Below are positions 23,849 to 29,717 of a DNA stretch of 64,000 nt, piece by piece. The stretch is from contig CACEHM010000002.1 in the NCBI GenBank assembly GCA_902559355.1, positions 171,246 through 235,245 of the forward strand, given 5' to 3'. The stretch is from an uncultured Gammaproteobacteria bacterium. GTDB taxonomy: Bacteria > Pseudomonadota > Gammaproteobacteria > GCA-002705445 > GCA-002716945. Each line of letters opens with the position of its first letter. The stretch's first letter is position 1. The notes under the pieces were generated by a model. That model was not told the DNA's origin and searched no databases. It worked only from the letters and a program-made list of their open reading frames with translations. The position numbers and the translations under genes are program-made.

Positions 23849-24870
23849 TTATGTTAAATATTCTAGTGTCTGCATTTCATTAAGTCTACTTTTACATCTT
23901 CTCCAAAGTTCTATAAGTTTATCACCTGTATAAATATGATTATATGAGCAGTTATTAAAAAAAAATTTAATCTTTATTTTGTTTCTATAGCAAATATCTA
24001 TAAAGGATATAAACCTTCTGATAAGATCGGCTGAATCATCATTACAAATAATAAAATCATTTATAAAGATCCACTCTATGTTTTCTGACATCTCAATATA
24101 TTCTTTATCTCCTCCAGGCTCTTTGAAGAAGTCTGAAAAAGAAATCCATAAAAAATCACATGATGTTGCTTTACAACTAAAACTTCTAGAATTGATACAG
24201 TACTTTTTATTAAAAGTTAGATTTTCAAAATTATTTTTTAAAAACTTTACAATATCTTTATCATCATAATTTTGATTTACATTATCATTATACATATTAA
24301 CAATATTTCTTGATCTATAATCTACCAAGCCTTCTACTTTATATAGATTAATTGATTCTTGCATAATCTTCATCTCATTAATAAACACTTCTCTCTGTAG
24401 ACCATTTTTATATAATTCTTCTGGATGTGTATTAGAAGTTAAATACAGAGTAACATTTAATTTAATGAGCTGATTTAGTAGGCTTCCGATAATCATCGCG
24501 TCTGATATATCCTCAACTTGAAATTCATCAATAAATATAACTTTACATTTTTTACTTAAAGATCTAGCTACAATATTCAAAGGATTTTTTTTACCTGACA
24601 AGCCAGATAATTCATCATGTACGATCTGCATGAGCTCCATGTAATGGAATGATGCTTTTCTTTCTGTTAGTAAATTAATAAAAGATTTTGTAATTAAAGT
24701 TTTACCTGTTCCAACATCTCCCCATATATAGAAACCTTTCTTGGAATCTTTATTTTCTAATTTATTTGTTAAATCTTTTTCAGGTTGAATAGATTCAATC
24801 ATTTTGTGAATCAAATCTGATTGTGCTGAATCTAATTTAATCCCTCTTTTTTTTAAACTTTTTTCAATAT
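23849..24870 (-). CDS. zapE: AFG1-family ATPase (cell division protein ZapE)
   Basis: Walker A IWGDVGTGKT and Walker B VIFIDEFQVEDI. I chose the ATG at 24870 (MFEYIEKSL...). The ORF is open upstream to 24982, but only by reading through a tRNA fragment. Confidence 0.7.
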
Positions 24871-24888
24871 ACTCAAACATTTTTTTAA

Positions 24889-24940
24889 TACCACTGATCG
24901 GACTCGAACCGATACTTTCTTGCGAAAAAGGGATCTTGAG
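24889..24940 (-). pseudogene. 3' half of a split tRNA-Leu(CAA) gene: anticodon 3' stem, variable arm, T-arm, acceptor 3' strand
   Basis: The minus strand reads CTCAAGA-TCCCT-TTTTCGCAAGAAAGT-ATCGG-TTCGAGT-CCGAT-CAGTGGT-A. This gives a T-arm with a GGTTCGAGTCC loop, a GNRA-capped variable hairpin, and an acceptor 3' strand complementary to GCCACTG at 29674-29680. Confidence 0.7.
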
Positions 24941-24999
24941 TGCATTGTCTGCACCAACCCAACAGTTACAAGATTTTAACACATTTTTTAATATTTTTT

Positions 25000-25028
25000 T
25001 TACATAAGATATTCATAAGTGCTATAAT
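25000..25028 (+). promoter_or_regulatory. sigma70-like promoter (TTACAT-17 nt-TATAAT)
   Basis: -35 TTACAT at 25000-25005, a 17-nt spacer, and a perfect -10 TATAAT at 25023-25028. An AAGGAGA Shine-Dalgarno sits 7 nt before the ATG at 25097. Confidence 0.4.
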
Positions 25029-25510: not shown

Positions 25511-26134
25511 ATGGATAAAGAAAAAATTAAAAATAAAATCTTAGATATTGAAACCAAGTATAATTTTACCGAGGGATACAAATTGCTATATTGTCCATGG
25601 TCAACTATTGAACACTCTTCGATTGCGTTTATATCATTAAACCCTGGCAGTAAAATGCCTGATGAGGCAGATATTAGATTGTTATCTGATGAGAGAGGTA
25701 ATTCATATGAAATAGAAATGCATACTACTAAATCTCCTATTACTCATCAATTTTTAGAACTGTGCAAACTTCTCAATAAGAATCCCTCAGATATTCTTAC
25801 TGGCACAATTTGTCCATTTAGAGGTAAATCATGGACATCATTTTCTCGTGATCAGAGAAATGCAGGTCTAATGCTAGGCAAATATTTCTGGCACAAAACT
25901 CTAGATAAGATTAACTTACTCATTTGCGTTGGTAATGATGTTGCAAAAAATATGACTTCTATTTCTGATTTTAAAAAAGAGAAAATTTTTGATTCAGGTT
26001 GGGGTGATATTAAAATAACAAGATATAAAGACAGCACAGGTAAGATACTTATTCATTTACCACACCTCTCTACTTTTAAACTTTTTTCTCGAAAAGAGTG
26101 CTTACTTGTTCTAAAACAAGTTTTTAAGTTATAG
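25511..26134 (+). CDS. hypothetical protein with UDG-superfamily (uracil-DNA glycosylase fold, family 4/SMUG-like) motif pattern
   Basis: IAFISLNPGSKMPDEAD resembles UDG motif 1 (hhhhG-x-[NA]-PG followed by acidic residues). HQFLELCKLL matches the following helix. TICPFRGKSW...LLICVGNDVA resembles the V-x-C-RP..NR...hhV-LG region. The C-terminal HLPHLS resembles UDG motif 2 (HPSPL). This is a recalled pattern match, not a database hit. Confidence 0.45.
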   Translation: MDKEKIKNKILDIETKYNFTEGYKLLYCPWSTIEHSSIAFISLNPGSKMPDEADIRLLSDERGNSYEIEMHTTKSPITHQFLELCKLLNKNPSDILTGTICPFRGKSWTSFSRDQRNAGLMLGKYFWHKTLDKINLLICVGNDVAKNMTSISDFKKEKIFDSGWGDIKITRYKDSTGKILIHLPHLSTFKLFSRKECLLVLKQVFKL

Positions 26135-26149
26135 ACTATAATTTAAATA

Positions 26150-27226
26150 ATGATTGATATACATGATAAACTGCCCTCTGATCTAATTATTGGCAATGAA
26201 TATACTAAACAAGAATTAGATAAGTTGTTTAAGACATCTGAAATTGAAAACATTTATGGGGGTATTGGAAAGATAAATAATCGTTTAATCTTGCTTATCA
26301 CTCTAGACAAAACCTACACCGCAGAACTTCCTAAAAATGAGTCTGAAATGTCAAGAGAAGAGAAGGAAGAGCATAATTATCGTCATCTTGACTATTTTGA
26401 TATGGAGGAAAATATTTTCTGTTGGGATGGACCTACTAATATGAATCTTGAGAGTCCTTTAATAAAAGACTTTACCTCAAAATTATATCAATGCCTGTTG
26501 TTTGTTAGAGAGTATTATCATAAAGATGAATATGAATTTAAGAATAAAATTACTAATGATAAGTATTTTTACTGTGGGAAGATAAGATATCAAAAACATA
26601 TTGATACTAAAATTAAACATTTTATTTCAAGTTTAGAAGATGAACCTAATAAGAAACTTAATCATTTATATAAATTCATACCGACTGAATTAGATGAAAG
26701 AAAGAAAGAATTTAATATCTTAAAAGAAAAAGAGAAAAATGATTTTATTGAGTTAGTGCATCAAGAAGAATCTCGCACTCATGAAAGGAAAAGCACTTTT
26801 TCTGGAAATCCAGGCATTAAAAAAGAGTATATGGTTGAAAGTAACCTCAAAGCAGTATGCGGTTTTCTTAATGAAAGAGGTGGTAACCTTATGATTGGTA
26901 TCGAAGACGATGGGGAGGTTACTGGTATAGAGAAAGATTATAATTATAAAGACAATGATCAATTTGAGAGACATATTCTTTTTCAAATGAGAAAACTAAT
27001 GGATAAATTTGAAGTAATTGAAAAATATATTAAGTTTCAATTTGAATATGCTTCTTTAAGTGATAAAGACTCATCTAGAAAAATAGTATGTAGAATAAAT
27101 TGTAGACCATTACCTGATGATGAAGTTTCTTATGTTAACGGTAAACTTTATTTAAGAGTAGGACCCCAAACTAATGAATTAAGTGTAAAAGAGGCGTTAT
27201 CATGGTTAAAGAGAAGACAAAAGTAA
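26150..27226 (+). CDS. protein with C-terminal AlbA_2 / Schlafen-like (divergent AAA-4) domain
   Basis: EESRTHERKSTF...AVCGFLNERGGNLMIGIEDDGEVTGIEKD matches the AlbA_2 signature (E-S-x-T-x-E-[FY]-K ... A-F-x-N-x-x-GG-x-L-x-IG-V-x-D-D-G-x-V-x-G-I). I recognise no family for the N-terminal ~190 aa. Confidence 0.5.
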   Translation: MIDIHDKLPSDLIIGNEYTKQELDKLFKTSEIENIYGGIGKINNRLILLITLDKTYTAELPKNESEMSREEKEEHNYRHLDYFDMEENIFCWDGPTNMNLESPLIKDFTSKLYQCLLFVREYYHKDEYEFKNKITNDKYFYCGKIRYQKHIDTKIKHFISSLEDEPNKKLNHLYKFIPTELDERKKEFNILKEKEKNDFIELVHQEESRTHERKSTFSGNPGIKKEYMVESNLKAVCGFLNERGGNLMIGIEDDGEVTGIEKDYNYKDNDQFERHILFQMRKLMDKFEVIEKYIKFQFEYASLSDKDSSRKIVCRINCRPLPDDEVSYVNGKLYLRVGPQTNELSVKEALSWLKRRQK

Positions 27227-27636
27227 AGATATACCAAGGTGGTTCAACAGGTTTAGTTCAACAAAATAAACGCATGATTATGAAGTCTTCTCACACCAAA
27301 GGTGATGTAGGGATTCAAAGACAATTAAAAGATATGTTAAAAGCGAAATTTTCTTTTCATATAGTAATTATGCACTTTGGTGATTTTTTCAGGATAATCG
27401 AAGAGGACGCAGAGTTTTTTAATAAAGAATTTAATTTTAAACTTTCACAACCAGGACGATACACTTTCGTTACAACTGCGTTCCCTCTAAATAGTAGGCA
27501 AAAATATATAGATAAACTTACTGATATGGAAAAACAATTTTGTCTTCTAGATCAATATAAAGTTGACGGTACAGAGGAATTTTATAGGAAGGTAAACATA
27601 TCAACAAATAAAGATGCACTAGGGTTCTGGTACTAA
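27202..27636 (+). CDS. stand-alone MutS domain I (mismatch-recognition domain)-like protein
   Basis: [45 protein letters not shown] parallels E. coli MutS [71 protein letters not shown] parallels [28 protein letters not shown]. The GDF-Y-E Glu is Arg here (GDFFR). The gene overlaps the upstream ORF by 25 nt; an alternative start is the Met at 27274. Confidence 0.5.
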   Translation: [144 protein letters not shown]

Positions 27637-27656
27637 ATAAGAGAAGTCTCTAGTTC

Positions 27657-28352
27657 ATGATTGATATAACTTTTGATATGTTCTCGGATACTCCTGAAGG
27701 AAAAGATCCAGATACATGGAGTCCAACGTTAAGAAAGTACCATCAAATTTTATGGAATAAACGATTACCCAATGGAACTATGTTTAGTCTTGATCTTGAG
27801 ACAAGACAGTTATTACATCACAGATCTCAATTAGGAGAATTTTATTTATCAAGTGATTGTATAGGTCATACATACAGTCGTACTAAAAGTATTTCTGATA
27901 TAGTCAATCAGATTCCCTTAAGTGAAATAGATTCGTTTTATAAACTATGTAGCACAATAGGTTCTTATATCATATATCCTTGCAAAAGAATTGATAATAA
28001 GATGACATTTAATGGTGCTCGAGGTACTAATCGCAAGATAAAAGATAGATTCGACCTAACATTAGAATGTATTCGATTGTTTTATCAAAATGAAAAAAGT
28101 CCACTTAGTGAGACTATAGAAAGATATAAATCATATTTTAAACTATTTGATAACTTTCAAGGTTATGTTGATTTCTTTTTACTTCAAGATTTAGTATCAA
28201 GTGATTATTCGTCTATTAAATATCTTATACCTTTTAAAGATTTCGATAGTCCAGCACTACCATGCAACGTAGAAGAATATATTACTTATAAAGATAATAC
28301 GACAAAATTTATTTCACAAAGAAATGAAAGAATATTAAAATCAATACAATGA
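27657..28352 (+). CDS. hypothetical protein (orphan, 231 aa)
   Basis: Tightly linked to its neighbours (ATGA overlap with the next gene). I recognise no motif. Conserved-looking stretch: DPDTWSPTLRKYHQILWNKRLPNG. Confidence 0.5.
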   Translation: MIDITFDMFSDTPEGKDPDTWSPTLRKYHQILWNKRLPNGTMFSLDLETRQLLHHRSQLGEFYLSSDCIGHTYSRTKSISDIVNQIPLSEIDSFYKLCSTIGSYIIYPCKRIDNKMTFNGARGTNRKIKDRFDLTLECIRLFYQNEKSPLSETIERYKSYFKLFDNFQGYVDFFLLQDLVSSDYSSIKYLIPFKDFDSPALPCNVEEYITYKDNTTKFISQRNERILKSIQ

Positions 28353-29419
28353 GTAAATTTAAACCTATCTTATACGACGAACTATTTAAATTAATAACAC
28401 TTGGTGATGATGAAGAATGGGAAAAATTTTCTTCAGAGTACGAACATGTCTTTACACCAGGGTTTTTCTCACAACTTTCTGACACCGAAATTTATGAACT
28501 ATTTAATCATTATCAATTTTTATCCATTGAATATTGGAATATTTATTCTTCTTCATTAATTAACTCAGAGAATAATAAAATTAGATCCAATCAACTTCTA
28601 AAAAAATATCGTGAAATATGGGAAGGAAAAACACATAATAAAAATAGCACAGTCACTCCTGGAATTAACGAAAGAAAAATTAAAGAAATTGATGATTTTG
28701 AATTTGCAATTAATTATCCAGTCGAGGAAATATTAGATCCATCATTAAGCGCCGCAGGACCACATTTCTCAGAGATTGTATTTTGTTCAATACTTTATAG
28801 TTTTTTTGAGGAAATACTAACAACCTTCGTATTTAATGTATCTGGAAGTAAGTGTTTTTTTAATAATATAAAATATAAAGATCATTACTTCTATAAAACA
28901 AATAGATATACAGACTTGTATAAAGATTATATGAAACATTCAATCAAAGAACCAAAGAGAAAAGACTATAAGAATTTAGATGATTTTTATTCGGAAAGAT
29001 TAAGATATAGAAACATTACTAAAAAAAGTCTTCCTGAAATTAAAAACAATGAATGGTTAGAGTTTTATAGAAATAATAAGGGTATTGATGGTCGAGAAGT
29101 CCCTGATTACATTATTAAAGCAAAATATATAGATCAAAGATGTGACAGTACATTATATTCTGACTTAATATCACAGAGTAGATTTAAAGAATTCAAAATT
29201 AAAAGGAACAATGTGATGCATGCAAAATCAAATGAATCTAATATATCAACTCTTGCATGTTTTGATATTATAACTGATTTGCTTAACTTCTTAATTAATG
29301 ATAAGAATATTATCAATCAATATTCTAGTTGTATAAGTCAAAACAGTCTAAGATTTGATATTGATAAATTAGATGACGATGATGCTATTTGGGTATTTCA
29401 ATCTGAGATGACTTATTAA
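28349..29419 (+). CDS. hypothetical protein with C-terminal HEPN/Abi_2-like R-x4-H motif (candidate RNase effector)
   Basis: The C-terminal FKIKRNNVMHAKSNESNISTLACFDII contains an R-N-x-x-x-H motif typical of HEPN abortive-infection proteins. Size and composition are compatible with AbiD/AbiF-like proteins. Weak. Confidence 0.35.
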   Translation: MSKFKPILYDELFKLITLGDDEEWEKFSSEYEHVFTPGFFSQLSDTEIYELFNHYQFLSIEYWNIYSSSLINSENNKIRSNQLLKKYREIWEGKTHNKNSTVTPGINERKIKEIDDFEFAINYPVEEILDPSLSAAGPHFSEIVFCSILYSFFEEILTTFVFNVSGSKCFFNNIKYKDHYFYKTNRYTDLYKDYMKHSIKEPKRKDYKNLDDFYSERLRYRNITKKSLPEIKNNEWLEFYRNNKGIDGREVPDYIIKAKYIDQRCDSTLYSDLISQSRFKEFKIKRNNVMHAKSNESNISTLACFDIITDLLNFLINDKNIINQYSSCISQNSLRFDIDKLDDDDAIWVFQSEMTY

Positions 29420-29425
29420 TATTTA

Positions 29426-29509
29426 TAGCGATAGACAGACTCGAACTGTCACTCTGTTGCCAGAATCGGATTTTGAGTCCGACGCGTCTACCAATTCCGC
29501 CATATCGCC
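29426..29509 (-). tRNA. tRNA-Leu (anticodon CAA), class II with long variable arm
   Basis: Cloverleaf read manually on the minus strand: acceptor GGCGATA/TATCGCT (G1-U72), D-arm GCG-GAATTGGTAGA-CGC, anticodon arm TCGGA-CTCAAAA-TCCGA, variable hairpin TCTG-GCAA-CAGA, T-arm GACAG-TTCGAGT-CTGTC, discriminator A, and no encoded CCA. Confidence 0.85.
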
Positions 29510-29640: not shown

Positions 29641-29680
29641 GTTTTGAGTCCCTCGTGTCTACCAATTCCACCACAGTGGC
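29641..29680 (-). pseudogene. 5' half of the split tRNA-Leu(CAA): acceptor 5' strand, D-arm, anticodon 5' stem and loop
   Basis: The minus strand reads GCCACTG-TG-GTG-GAATTGGTAGA-CAC-G-AGGGA-CTCAAAA, then diverges into GAAGACGG... with no anticodon 3' stem or T-arm. AGGGA pairs with TCCCT in the fragment at 24929-24933. Confidence 0.65.
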
Positions 29681-29717
29681 ATAATATTATTTATTTATGT
29701 GTTATCATTACAGAATA

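What the first reader, a model, noticed from the sequence alone, without database searches (positions are those of the whole stretch)
27202..27636. Stand-alone MutS domain I homolog with the mismatch-contacting Glu replaced
The 144-aa ORF aligns by eye over about 100 residues with the N-terminal mismatch-recognition domain of MutS (Q-x-L-K...hhhh-R/H-x-GDF-[YF]-x-hh..DA and A-G/A-h-P......Y-h-x-KL.......h-x-h-x-[ED]-Q). It stops where the MutS connector domain would begin and has no ATPase domain. In the GDF-Y-E motif that intercalates and hydrogen-bonds the mismatched base, the Glu is Arg (GDFFR). This suggests retargeted specificity, for example to a modified base or another lesion. MutS_I-only proteins are rare and uncharacterised.
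Basis: partly seen in the sequence, partly recalled or inferred. Interest (0 to 1): 0.75.

Follow-up and report, generated by a model that had tools for sequence, protein, structure and literature searches.

The report
Stand-alone MutS domain I island protein
This small gene really does encode only the DNA-contacting first domain of the mismatch-repair protein MutS, but it belongs to an undescribed family of mobile "island" genes in marine bacteria. What the family conserves is a new N-terminal peptide, not the mismatch-reading residues.

Summary

In the orthologues the "Glu" position is R/K/T/I/E/N/H and the Phe position also varies, so Glu-to-Arg is drift at an unconstrained site. The invariant features are an N-terminal peptide [13 protein letters not shown] (predicted disordered), a basic linker, and the structural IEEDA turn.

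The family lives in tRNA-, glmS- or integrase-adjacent flexible or defence islands of marine Gamma-, Beta- and Alphaproteobacteria. Its neighbours include restriction-modification systems, DUF6994 plus EEP, and AlbA_2. More distant relatives fuse the domain to PIF1, UvrD or DEAD helicases, Prim-Pol, DarT, sigma-70 region 4 or a PcrA/UvrD-Tudor-like tail.

The 25-nt overlap is a recombination scar. A junction at a GTAAA microhomology removed the native ATG.

Best reading (inferred): a non-catalytic DNA-binding adaptor whose peptide docks a partner enzyme. Interest is moderate.

The parts
27202..27636 (+). 144-aa ORF encoding a stand-alone MutS domain I homologue. It uses the only in-frame start codon that is left.
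   Evidence: for the ORF, domain match and structure. An AAGAGG Shine-Dalgarno-like sequence ends 7 nt before the ATG (sequence).
27226..27264 (+). Codons for K9-Q21, the peptide [22 protein letters not shown] is invariant in all 35 family members, and the flanking K-I-Y-Q is conserved in at least 90%. The peptide is predicted disordered.
   Evidence: Alignment A1. Its codons differ synonymously between loci, so the constraint acts on the protein. pLDDT is below 50 in both models.
27265..27312 (+). Basic linker (aa 22-37) between the peptide and the folded domain.
   Evidence: Over 54 family members the mean net charge is +4.4 over the 18 residues after the motif. The core is about neutral and the pI is about 9.4.
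27313..27633 (+). MutS domain I fold (aa 38-144): H38-50, E54-59, E62-66, H67-77, E91-95, H96-108, E113-120, E127-134.
27379..27393 (+). G-D-F-F-R, the counterpart of the MutS G-D-F-Y-E mismatch-reading motif. Only the Gly is conserved in the family.
27223..27227 (+). GTAAA microhomology at the recombination junction. Left of it the sequence follows the 3' end of the AlbA_2 gene. Right of it the sequence follows codon 2 onward of the MutS_I gene. The native ATG is replaced by AAA (27220-27222).
   Evidence: Three-way comparison of the window with L001 1290-1370 and L001 2570-2650. The blastn blocks 26138-27234 and 27217-27642 overlap.
26150..27226 (+). Upstream gene, 358 aa, with a C-terminal Schlafen/AlbA_2 domain. 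It is 96.7% identical in DNA to contig L001, while neighbouring genes are about 84-85% identical.
27657..28352 (+). Downstream gene encoding DUF6994, described in the literature as having a predicted HNH / type IV restriction-like fold. It starts 20 nt after the MutS_I stop codon.
   Evidence: Pfam E=3.4e-90. Description from PMC11701544.
25511..26134 (+). 207-aa gene with no family match. In L001 it overlaps the start of the DUF6994 gene, so the two form an operon pair there.
28349..29419 (+). 356-aa gene with no family match. It occupies the position held by an Exo_endo_phos (EEP) gene in related islands and is not homologous to that gene.
24885..24975 (-). Degenerate tRNA-like remnant at the left border of the island. 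In relatives this segment lies directly upstream of the MutS_I start codon.
   Evidence: blastn and sequence comparison. ARAGORN calls the homologous segment a tRNA in L001, L003 and L015. It gets no Rfam hit in the window. Repeat D2.
29426..29509 (-). tRNA-Leu(CAA), the right border of the island.
24999..25028 (+). Best sigma-70-like promoter match in the region (11 of 12 positions, with an extended TG). It reads into the six co-directional island genes.
   Evidence: This is a consensus match only.

Best explanation
The ORF encodes a non-catalytic DNA-binding adaptor of about 138 aa from an undescribed family. The protein has three parts: a degenerate MutS domain I, a lysine/arginine-rich disordered arm in front of it, and an invariant peptide (phi-[13 protein letters not shown]) at the tip of that arm.

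Shown:
- The fold is MutS domain I.
- The gene is under purifying selection.
- The mismatch-reading Phe-x-Glu is not conserved.
- The peptide is conserved at the protein level.
- The gene travels as a cassette or terminal gene of tRNA-, glmS- or integrase-linked flexible and defence islands in marine oligotrophic bacteria.
- More distant relatives have the same domain covalently fused to DNA motors and DNA-modifying enzymes.

Inferred:
- The domain and basic arm hold DNA, probably in a structure-dependent rather than mismatch-specific way, as the Phe-x-Glu-less domain I of MSH2 and MSH3 does.
- The invariant peptide docks a partner enzyme (a helicase, nuclease, recombinase or RNA polymerase, either host- or island-encoded). 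It would do in trans what the fusions do in cis.

In this genome the copy has been rearranged. A junction at GTAAA fused the end of the AlbA_2 gene to codon 2 and removed the native ATG and upstream region. Translation, if it occurs, must start at ATG 27202 within the six-gene co-directional island string.
For: Fold and homology.

Family and invariant peptide.

Selection: dN/dS is 0.05-0.2, and the motif codons vary synonymously.

Arm: the peptide and linker are predicted disordered, and the linker is basic.

Fusions of the domain in relatives (Tudor-like hits):
- PIF1 helicase: P0055, P0140
- UvrD: P0097
- DEAD helicase plus DUF559 endonuclease: P0085
- Prim-Pol: P0074, P0107
- DarT: P0072, P0124
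- Sigma70_r4: P0096, P0128, P0138
- PcrA/UvrD-Tudor-like tails: P0045, P0053 (below the Pfam cut-off)

The peptide is present in 52 of 82 stand-alone proteins of 131-200 aa but in only 1 of 28 multidomain proteins of at least 300 aa. This fits a tether that becomes dispensable when the partner is fused.

Island context. The neighbour census finds restriction-modification genes, DNA methyltransferases, HNH, DUF6994, EEP, AlbA_2, and tyrosine and serine recombinases. att-like repeats lie immediately upstream of the gene in four clades.

Rearrangement scar.
Against: - No DNA binding, partner or phenotype has been measured. The docking role of the peptide is inference only.
- The one fusion that keeps the peptide (the PIF1 fusion P0055/L007) argues that the peptide may have an intrinsic role, for example contacting DNA, rather than recruiting a helicase.
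- The contrast in motif presence between stand-alone and fused forms is confounded by phylogeny.
- No single neighbouring gene is conserved across contexts, so no partner can be named.
- No PADLOC or PHROG family matches.
- The window copy lacks its native start codon and upstream region and may be poorly expressed or not expressed.
Confidence: 0.45

Rival explanations
1. The protein is a stand-alone mismatch or lesion reader, and the Glu-to-Arg change in GDF-F-R retargets it to a modified base or another lesion.
For: The fold is MutS domain I, and the Phe is kept in this copy. The neighbours are DNA-modification and restriction genes. A modified-base sensor would fit among them.
Against: In orthologues under strong purifying selection the Glu position is R/K/T/I/E/N/H and the Phe position is F/Y/M/S/T/N or a gap. 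No particular residue is selected at either position. Phe36 and Glu38 are both required for mismatch recognition in MutS (10.1101/2024.07.17.603841).
Confidence: 0.07
2. A transcriptional controller of island cassettes, analogous to the C proteins of restriction-modification systems. The small DNA-binding protein would be encoded first in the operon, bind an operator upstream of its own gene, and time the expression of downstream nucleases.
For: The gene is usually the first gene, co-oriented with and 10-80 nt upstream of the restriction-modification, HNH or DUF6994 cargo. A palindrome, TAACAT-N5-ATGTTA, lies just upstream of the native start in L001/L015. Relatives are fused to sigma-70 region 4.
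Against: The upstream palindrome is not conserved outside the closest clade. In L013 the cargo is convergent, in L008 the cargo is upstream, and in OM43-type arrays the gene is a separate single-gene cassette. There is no HTH, and the MutS domain I fold is not known to read DNA sequence.
Confidence: 0.12
3. An antagonist of mismatch repair, or a helper of recombination. A free domain I would occupy mismatches or heteroduplex (or titrate a MutS partner through the peptide). This would relax the mismatch-repair barrier to recombination between diverged flanks and so favour acquisition and swapping of island cassettes.
For: The gene sits at island borders next to att-like repeats and diverged flanks of about 85% identity. 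The domain derives from the mismatch-repair sensor. UvrD and UvrD-Tudor-like fusions link the module to the mismatch-repair helicase.
Against: The mismatch-reading residues are not conserved, so mismatch occupancy is unlikely. There is no evidence that these hosts have MutS; none is encoded in the window. The idea is purely contextual.
Confidence: 0.1
4. The sensor subunit of a multi-gene defence or repair module together with DUF6994 (HNH-like) and an EEP-type or other nuclease. MutS_I would bind foreign or damaged DNA and direct the nucleases to it.
For: DUF6994 and/or EEP lie within two genes of MutS_I in seven lineages that share only 26-87% identity: the window, L001, L008, L011, L050, L030 and L023. 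DUF6994 directly follows MutS_I in three of these: the window (20-nt gap), L011 (11 nt) and L050.
Against: Most contexts lack DUF6994 and EEP. In L001 a type I restriction-modification system separates them. In OM43-type arrays MutS_I and DUF6994-EEP are separate repeat-bounded cassettes. In the window the adjacency looks secondary, because a remnant of the 207-aa gene's 3' end lies between them.
Confidence: 0.13
5. In this particular genome the copy is an inactive relic. The rearrangement removed its start codon and promoter, and it is on the way to decay.
For: The native ATG is replaced by AAA, and the native upstream region is deleted. The 144-aa form with the N-terminal extension is found only on this contig. 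All 9 other members of its 90%-identity cluster have the 138-aa form.
Against: The reading frame is intact, with no frameshift or stop. The protein is 94-95% identical to P0001. An in-frame ATG with a good Shine-Dalgarno sequence lies 18 nt upstream of the lost start codon, and the gene is embedded in a co-directional operon-like string.
Confidence: 0.13

Closest known systems
Domain I (mismatch-binding domain, PF01624) of bacterial MutS (E. coli, Taq)
   Different: No connector, core, clamp or ATPase domains. Phe-x-Glu is not conserved in the family. There is an extra N-terminal arm of about 35 residues with an invariant peptide that MutS lacks. The gene is encoded in mobile islands rather than as a core repair gene.
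Domain I of MSH2 and MSH3 (eukaryotic MutS homologues)
   Different: MSH2 and MSH3 domain I works only inside a heterodimeric ATPase clamp. The protein here is free-standing.
Multidomain relatives found here: MutS_I fused to PIF1, UvrD or DEAD helicases, Prim-Pol, DarT, or sigma-70 region 4
   Same: Same domain family by profile search (E from 1e-22 to 1e-7; Pfam results). At least the PIF1 fusion (L007) is also in a tRNA-adjacent island next to Dcm methylase genes.
   Different: They carry an enzymatic or RNAP-binding partner in the same polypeptide, and 27 of 28 lack the N-terminal peptide.
Controller (C) proteins of restriction-modification systems
   Same: A small DNA-binding protein encoded just upstream of, and co-oriented with, restriction-modification genes.
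   Different: C proteins are HTH proteins that bind conserved C-boxes. Here the fold is MutS domain I, no conserved operator was found, and the cargo is not always a restriction-modification system.
Additive flexible genomic islands and tycheposon-type island remnants of streamlined marine and freshwater bacteria
   Same: The islands abut tRNA genes or a gene's 3' end, with recurring partial copies of the attachment sequence and variable cargo (PMC10872708; 10.1101/2020.12.28.424599). The same architecture is seen here.
   Different: Those papers do not mention a MutS-domain gene. The window's island has no integrase.

Membership tests
MutS domain I (Pfam PF01624) | Sequence match to the family profile above the curated gathering score | tested here: met
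   32.5 bits against a cut-off of 20.6, E=1.1e-7, residues 46-131 on profile positions 10-100 of 113. The family profile A1 hits Taq MutS at E=0.0026.
MutS domain I (Pfam PF01624) | The alpha/beta fold of MutS/MSH domain I | tested here: met
Mismatch-recognising MutS domain I (MutS1 / MSH6 type) | Conserved Phe-x-Glu (E. coli Phe36 and Glu38) in the G-D-F-Y-E hairpin | tested here: not met
   The window has F62 but R64. In the orthologues position 62 is F/Y/M/S/T/N or a gap and position 64 is R/K/T/I/E/N/H. Only 57 of 185 family representatives keep [FY]-x-E.
MutS protein family (MutS1/MutS2/MSH ATPases) | ABC-type ATPase domain V (PF00488) with core and clamp domains | tested here: not met
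   The only significant Pfam hit in the 144-aa protein is MutS_I. Full-length homologues are 135-145 aa. The downstream gene is DUF6994. No reading frame nearby continues into a mutS gene.
Pseudogenised fragment of a longer mutS gene | Adjacent out-of-frame or truncated remains of MutS domains II-V | tested here: not met
   The flanking ORFs are AlbA_2 and DUF6994. The same short architecture recurs in more than 50 loci from several bacterial classes. dN/dS is 0.05-0.2.
Known anti-phage defence system components (PADLOC-DB v2) | Match to a PADLOC protein model | tested here: not met
   None of the five island proteins matches any model at E up to 1.
Restriction-modification controller (C) protein | HTH fold and a conserved palindromic operator upstream of its own gene | tested here: not met
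   The fold is MutS domain I. A palindrome is present only in the closest clade and is absent elsewhere.
Integrase-built tRNA-linked genomic island (tycheposon / additive fGI type), as the context of the gene | The island abuts a tRNA gene and is bounded by a partial tRNA copy | tested here: met
   tRNA-Leu(CAA) lies at 29426-29509. A degenerate tRNA-like copy lies at 24885-24975, and a 5'-half-like copy at 29642-29682.
Integrase-built tRNA-linked genomic island (tycheposon / additive fGI type), as the context of the gene | A site-specific integrase inside the element | tested here: not met
   No recombinase domain is found in the five larger ORFs between 24976 and 29425. The 60-aa ORF has no Pfam match. 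Tyrosine or serine recombinases do flank the gene in other lineages.

The most novel reading that the evidence does not exclude
The MutS-domain-I protein is the DNA-sensing subunit of a new kind of island-borne defence or DNA-surveillance module. Its basic arm and degenerate domain I would recognise an abnormal DNA structure, such as phage replication or recombination intermediates or modified DNA. Its invariant [10 protein letters not shown] peptide would be a previously unknown docking motif that hands this DNA to a nuclease or helicase. Candidates are the HNH-like DUF6994 and its partner encoded next to it here and in several other lineages, or a host helicase such as UvrD. That would make it a minimal, modular 'sensor cassette' that can arm different effectors.
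Probability: 0.15. Interest if true: 0.8.

Novelty: new variant of a known kind. Interest (0 to 1): 0.55.

Why it matters
MutS domain I has been studied almost only as the mismatch reader inside the MutS/MSH ATPase clamp. This locus shows the domain also circulates on its own. It is a strongly conserved cassette gene of about 138 aa in the flexible and defence islands of abundant marine bacteria (an uncultured gammaproteobacterium here, OM43 Methylophilaceae, OCS116). In relatives it appears as a plug-in module on helicases, primase-polymerases, the DarT toxin and RNAP-binding domains.

If the invariant N-terminal peptide is a docking motif, it gives a handle to find what these islands recruit. 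If the protein turns out to sense DNA structures for neighbouring nucleases, it would add a new sensor type to bacterial immunity.

The case also cautions against reading a single substitution in one sequence as a specificity switch when orthologues are available.

Tried and rejected
1. Frameshift fusion with the upstream ORF. Rejected. The overlap is a recombination junction at GTAAA, homologues are separate genes with their own ATG, and the overlap contains no canonical slippery heptamer.

2. Fragment of a decayed mutS gene. Rejected.

3. A DNA- or RNA-level element causing the invariant N-terminal motif. Rejected, because third codon positions vary freely.

4. A phage or plasmid gene. There is no relative in IMG/VR, no PHROG match, and no tblastn hit in INPHARED phages or PLSDB plasmids.

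5. The motif as a module shared with other proteins. The only other exact GGSTGLVQQ found was in one family of phage tape-measure-like proteins, embedded in a helical region, and is judged a chance match.

6. A deeper alignment to order the N-terminus in AlphaFold. It stayed disordered.

7. The 207-aa protein as the N-terminal part of the 494-aa DUF6994 protein of L011, and the 356-aa protein as a diverged EEP. Neither pair shows similarity.

8. A search for the Prim-Pol fusion in phages and plasmids hit only the Prim-Pol part.

9. The AFDB Foldseek library was not available. The profile of the wide alignment A4 gave no PDB hit, while A1 did.

10. Literature searches for DUF6994, MutS_I with defence, MutS-I with DarT, stand-alone MutS domain I, and glmS cassette arrays found nothing on this family.
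Full report
1. THE OBSERVATION

The ORF 27202-27636 (+) encodes 144 aa.
- Pfam gives MutS_I (PF01624) at E=1.1e-7, 32.5 bits against a gathering score of 20.6. Residues 46-131 lie on profile positions 10-100 of 113.
- The NCBIfam MutS equivalogs match only through their first ~90 positions.
- A single-sequence search of PDB sequences finds Taq MutS only weakly (E=0.31). The family profile raises this to E=0.0026.
- Two AlphaFold2 models, from alignments of 35 and 49 sequences, agree on a well-defined core (aa 38-144, pLDDT above 90) and a disordered N-terminus.
- The 50 best Foldseek PDB matches are all domain I of MutS, MSH2, MSH3 or MSH6.
- G-D-F-F-R (aa 60-64, nt 27379-27393) aligns with G-D-F-Y-E of Taq MutS.

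The protein stops 13 residues after the domain. The next gene is DUF6994. No MutS domain II-V is found in any neighbouring frame.

2. A GENE FAMILY, NOT A FRAGMENT

A search of 5.8 billion proteins found 34 homologues. The full-length ones are 135-145 aa, 32-95% identical to the window protein, and all come from marine metagenomes or MAGs.

A profile search of 1.84 billion cluster representatives found 221 clusters at E up to 1e-3, most of them 100-400 aa. A full-length MutS appears only at about 1e-5.

Pairwise dN/dS between the window copy and six homologues is 0.05-0.2, with synonymous sites near saturation.

In species-representative genomes the family was found in a Methylophilaceae (OM43-type) genome and, as a fusion, in an OCS116-cluster alphaproteobacterium. 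The window itself comes from a 268,632-bp NCBI contig. Its Tgt protein falls in a cluster named 'Gammaproteobacteria bacterium'. The surrounding genes (LapB-like, PyrF, PfkB, ZapE, QueA, Tgt, SecD) are ordinary chromosomal genes.

3. WHAT IS AND IS NOT CONSERVED

- Only the Gly of G-D-F-F-R is invariant.
- The position equivalent to MutS Phe36 is F/Y/M/S/T/N or a gap.
- The position equivalent to Glu38 is R or K in the six closest sequences, then T, I, E, N or H.
- Over 185 representatives of the wider family, 57 keep [FY]-x-E.

Both residues are required for mismatch recognition by MutS (background from 10.1101/2024.07.17.603841). The family is under strong purifying selection overall. The free variation at these two sites therefore means they are not functional determinants here. 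Glu-to-Arg is one of many tolerated states, not a retargeting event.

The constrained features are three:
(i) The structural I-E-E-D-A turn, the counterpart of [DE]-D-A in MutS.
(ii) A nine-residue stretch, G-G-S-T-G-L-V-Q-Q (aa 13-21), identical in all 35 sequences. It is preceded by K-I-Y-Q, conserved in at least 90% of them. It is recognisable as GG-[SAQT]-[TP]-G-[LM]-x-Q-Q in more distant members.
(iii) A basic linker behind the peptide. Its mean net charge is +4.4 over 18 residues, the core is about neutral, and the pI is about 9.4.

The peptide's codons differ at synonymous positions between loci, so the constraint acts on the protein. Both models leave the peptide and linker disordered. 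MutS itself begins roughly where the folded part of this protein begins. The arm is therefore an addition specific to this family.

4. THE 25-NT OVERLAP IS A RECOMBINATION SCAR

A related contig, L001, has the AlbA_2 gene, a DUF2130 gene, a tRNA-like segment, and then the MutS_I gene with its own ATG (its MutS_I protein is 87% identical).
- The AlbA_2 gene in L001 ends ...GACAAAAGTAAAATATAC.
- The MutS_I gene in L001 begins ...TTTTTACAATGGTAAAGATTTATCAAGG.
- The window reads GACAAAAGTAAAGATATACCAAGG.

Left of GTAAA (27223-27227) the window follows the AlbA_2 parent. Right of it the window follows the MutS_I parent. The native ATG has become AAA (27220-27222), and the native upstream region is gone. 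The only remaining in-frame start is ATG 27202, inside the end of the AlbA_2 gene. By coincidence it has an AAGAGG sequence ending 7 nt upstream.

The 144-aa form is seen only on this contig. The other nine members of its 90% cluster are 138 aa. A programmed frameshift is therefore neither needed nor supported.

The region is a mosaic.
- AlbA_2 is 96.7% identical in DNA to L001, while the other shared genes are 84-85% identical.
- The AlbA_2-MutS_I block (26126-27656) lies between the 207-aa gene and the DUF6994 gene, which overlap each other in L001.
- A remnant of about 14 nt of the 207-aa gene's 3' end sits just before the DUF6994 start.
- Both the AlbA_2 and DUF6994 genes begin with ATGATTGATATA.

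5. WHERE THE FAMILY LIVES

In the window the gene is the fourth of six co-directional genes. They lie between a degenerate tRNA-like remnant (24885-24975, minus strand) and tRNA-Leu(CAA) (29426-29509, minus strand). The best promoter-like site is at 24999-25028.

Contexts of homologues:
- L001-L003, L015: tRNA-like segment, MutS_I, type I restriction-modification system, 207-aa gene, DUF6994, EEP, tRNA-Leu.
- L005: tRNA-like segment, MutS_I, two N4/N6 methylases.
- L010: MutS_I, then an 875-aa HNH protein.
- L011: MutS_I, DUF6994, EEP.
- L013: MutS_I, with a convergent Dam methylase and PD-(D/E)xK gene, then tRNA-Arg.
- L019: HsdR-like gene, a 230-aa gene, MutS_I, tRNA-Leu.
- L008, L009: glmS, optionally DUF6994-EEP, then MutS_I.

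A Pfam census of 113 flanking proteins gave the following counts:
- Serine recombinases: Recombinase 5, Resolvase 4.
- Tyrosine recombinases: 9, including a conserved 199-aa catalytic-domain-only form directly upstream in one clade.
- DNA methylases: at least 8.
- DUF6994: 4. EEP: 6. AlbA_2: 5. MORN: 8.
- Also BglII, HNH, DarT and Metallophos.

In four clades the gene starts 12-54 nt downstream of a copy of an attachment-type sequence. These are a tRNA or tRNA-like 3' part, the 3' end of glmS, or the 3' end of the 199-aa recombinase gene. That copy is retained when other cargo is inserted between it and the original.

In OM43-type contigs every gene of the array downstream of glmS is bounded by a repeat of the glmS 3' end. 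The MutS_I gene is a single-gene cassette of about 500 bp there.

This architecture matches published 'additive' flexible genomic islands and tycheposon-type island remnants (PMC10872708; 10.1101/2020.12.28.424599). Neither paper mentions a MutS-like gene.

The family has no relative in IMG/VR, PHROGs, INPHARED phages, PLSDB plasmids or PADLOC.

6. WHAT THE DISTANT RELATIVES SAY

The same domain family occurs fused to these partners:
- PIF1-type helicases: P0055 (the OCS116 locus L007, next to a tRNA-Ser and two Dcm genes) and P0140.
- UvrD: P0097.
- A DEAD helicase with a DUF559-type endonuclease: P0085.
- Prim-Pol, with two MutS_I copies: P0074, P0107.
- The ssDNA ADP-ribosyltransferase DarT: P0072, P0124.
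- Sigma-70 region 4: P0096, P0128, P0138.
- A topoisomerase-type zinc ribbon with DUF3553: P0130.

The 224-aa forms carry a C-terminal tail that hits the PcrA/UvrD Tudor (RNAP-binding) domain just below threshold in three independent sequences.

The N-terminal peptide is present in 52 of 82 proteins of 131-200 aa but in only 1 of 28 proteins of 300 aa or more.

7. MECHANISM

Shown: the fold, the selection, the degenerate mismatch motif, the invariant peptide on a disordered basic arm, the island and cassette life style, and the fusion partners.

Inferred: the protein is a non-enzymatic DNA-binding adaptor. The domain and basic arm hold DNA without mismatch specificity, as in the Phe-x-Glu-less domain I of MSH2 and MSH3 (established knowledge). 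The peptide docks a DNA motor or nuclease, replacing the covalent link seen in relatives. I put this at about 0.45.

Weak points of this reading:
- There is no biochemical evidence.
- One PIF1 fusion keeps the peptide, which could mean the peptide contacts DNA itself.
- No neighbour is universally conserved.

Rivals:
- A C-protein-like regulator (0.12).
- A sensor for the DUF6994/EEP nucleases (0.13). This pair is the most recurrent neighbour, seen in seven lineages, but it is a separate cassette in OM43-type arrays.
- A mismatch-repair antagonist that eases cassette exchange (0.10).
- For this copy only, an inactive relic (0.13).

8. COMPARISON AND NOVELTY

By sequence and fold the protein is a member of the MutS domain I family. 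It is not a MutS protein, because it has no ATPase, core or clamp domains. It fails the defining Phe-x-Glu feature of mismatch-recognising domain I.

The stand-alone architecture with the new arm and peptide, and its life as an island cassette, were not found described. I rate it a new variant of a known kind.

Interest is 0.55. The specific hook of the finding (Glu to Arg) does not hold. The family behind it is real, widespread in important marine lineages, uncharacterised, and experimentally tractable.

Noticed in passing
L035 1-4518; L008 7371-11920; L034 229-2171; L009 7951: In OM43-type (Methylophilaceae) contigs the genes downstream of glmS form an array. Every gene is bounded by a direct repeat of 23-40 nt that copies the glmS 3' end (AAATCAGTCACAGTGGARTAG, encoding ..KSVTVE*, followed by TTAACTTTGGAAAGGAT). 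L035 has eight copies in 4.5 kb and L008 has six. This looks like an integron-like or 'additive island' cassette array anchored on glmS. I found no description of it.
   Followed up: partly
window 24885-24975 (-), 29642-29682, 29426-29509: The island is framed by tRNA-Leu(CAA), a degenerate tRNA-like copy next to zapE, and a further 5'-half-like fragment right of the tRNA (repeats D1 and D2). In L001/L002 the AlbA_2-DUF2130 pair is inserted inside the tRNA-like segment, with its 3' half duplicated. This is the signature of site-specific integration, yet the island has no integrase.
   Followed up: partly
window 23849-24982 (-): The mechanical zapE ORF (377 aa, GTG start) runs into the tRNA-like remnant. 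Cluster members are 343 aa, so the true start is probably near 24880.
   Followed up: no
window 25511-26134 and 27657-29419; L001 9135-11118; L008 8558-9914; L011 1062-3217; L050 2790-4138: DUF6994 (predicted HNH-like, PMC11701544) recurs with an Exo_endo_phos gene directly downstream in four lineages, and with a 207-aa gene of unknown family overlapping its start in L001. In the window the EEP position is taken by an unrelated 356-aa protein with no family match. The set is a candidate small defence or nuclease module that is absent from PADLOC.
   Followed up: partly
window 26138-27234: The AlbA_2 gene is 96.7% identical in DNA to a Tara/JGI contig (L001/L002), while flanking shared genes are 84-85% identical. 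This points to recent horizontal replacement of this one gene. AlbA_2 proteins also flank MutS_I in distant lineages (L029, L031, L033).
   Followed up: partly
L037 116-712; L057 5392-5988; L053 4332-4928; L031 4705-5301; L040 1010-1606: A 199-aa tyrosine recombinase consisting of the catalytic domain only is conserved (75-100% identity) directly upstream of the MutS_I gene in one clade. Variable genes (MORN-repeat, AlbA_2) are inserted between the two, and a copy of the recombinase gene's 3' end is kept in front of MutS_I. A large serine recombinase, sometimes with a Metallophos gene, follows.
   Followed up: partly
L007 8663-10798: In an OCS116-cluster alphaproteobacterial genome the peptide plus MutS_I module is embedded in a 711-aa PIF1-type helicase. 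It is flanked by a duplicated SKIEKKYIDEIIKNNN segment. The gene lies next to tRNA-Ser and a Dcm / 468-aa / Dcm gene set.
   Followed up: no
P0043, P0045, P0053 (224 aa): A subfamily adds a C-terminal tail of about 45 residues that hits the PcrA/UvrD Tudor domain and the CarD/TRCF RNAP-interacting domain just below the Pfam cut-offs. This suggests tethering to RNA polymerase.
   Followed up: partly
L060-L068 (IMG/VR contigs): One family of phage proteins of about 542 aa, tape-measure-like by eye, contains an exact GGSTGLVQQ inside a helical, hydrophobic region. I judged it a coincidence.
   Followed up: yes
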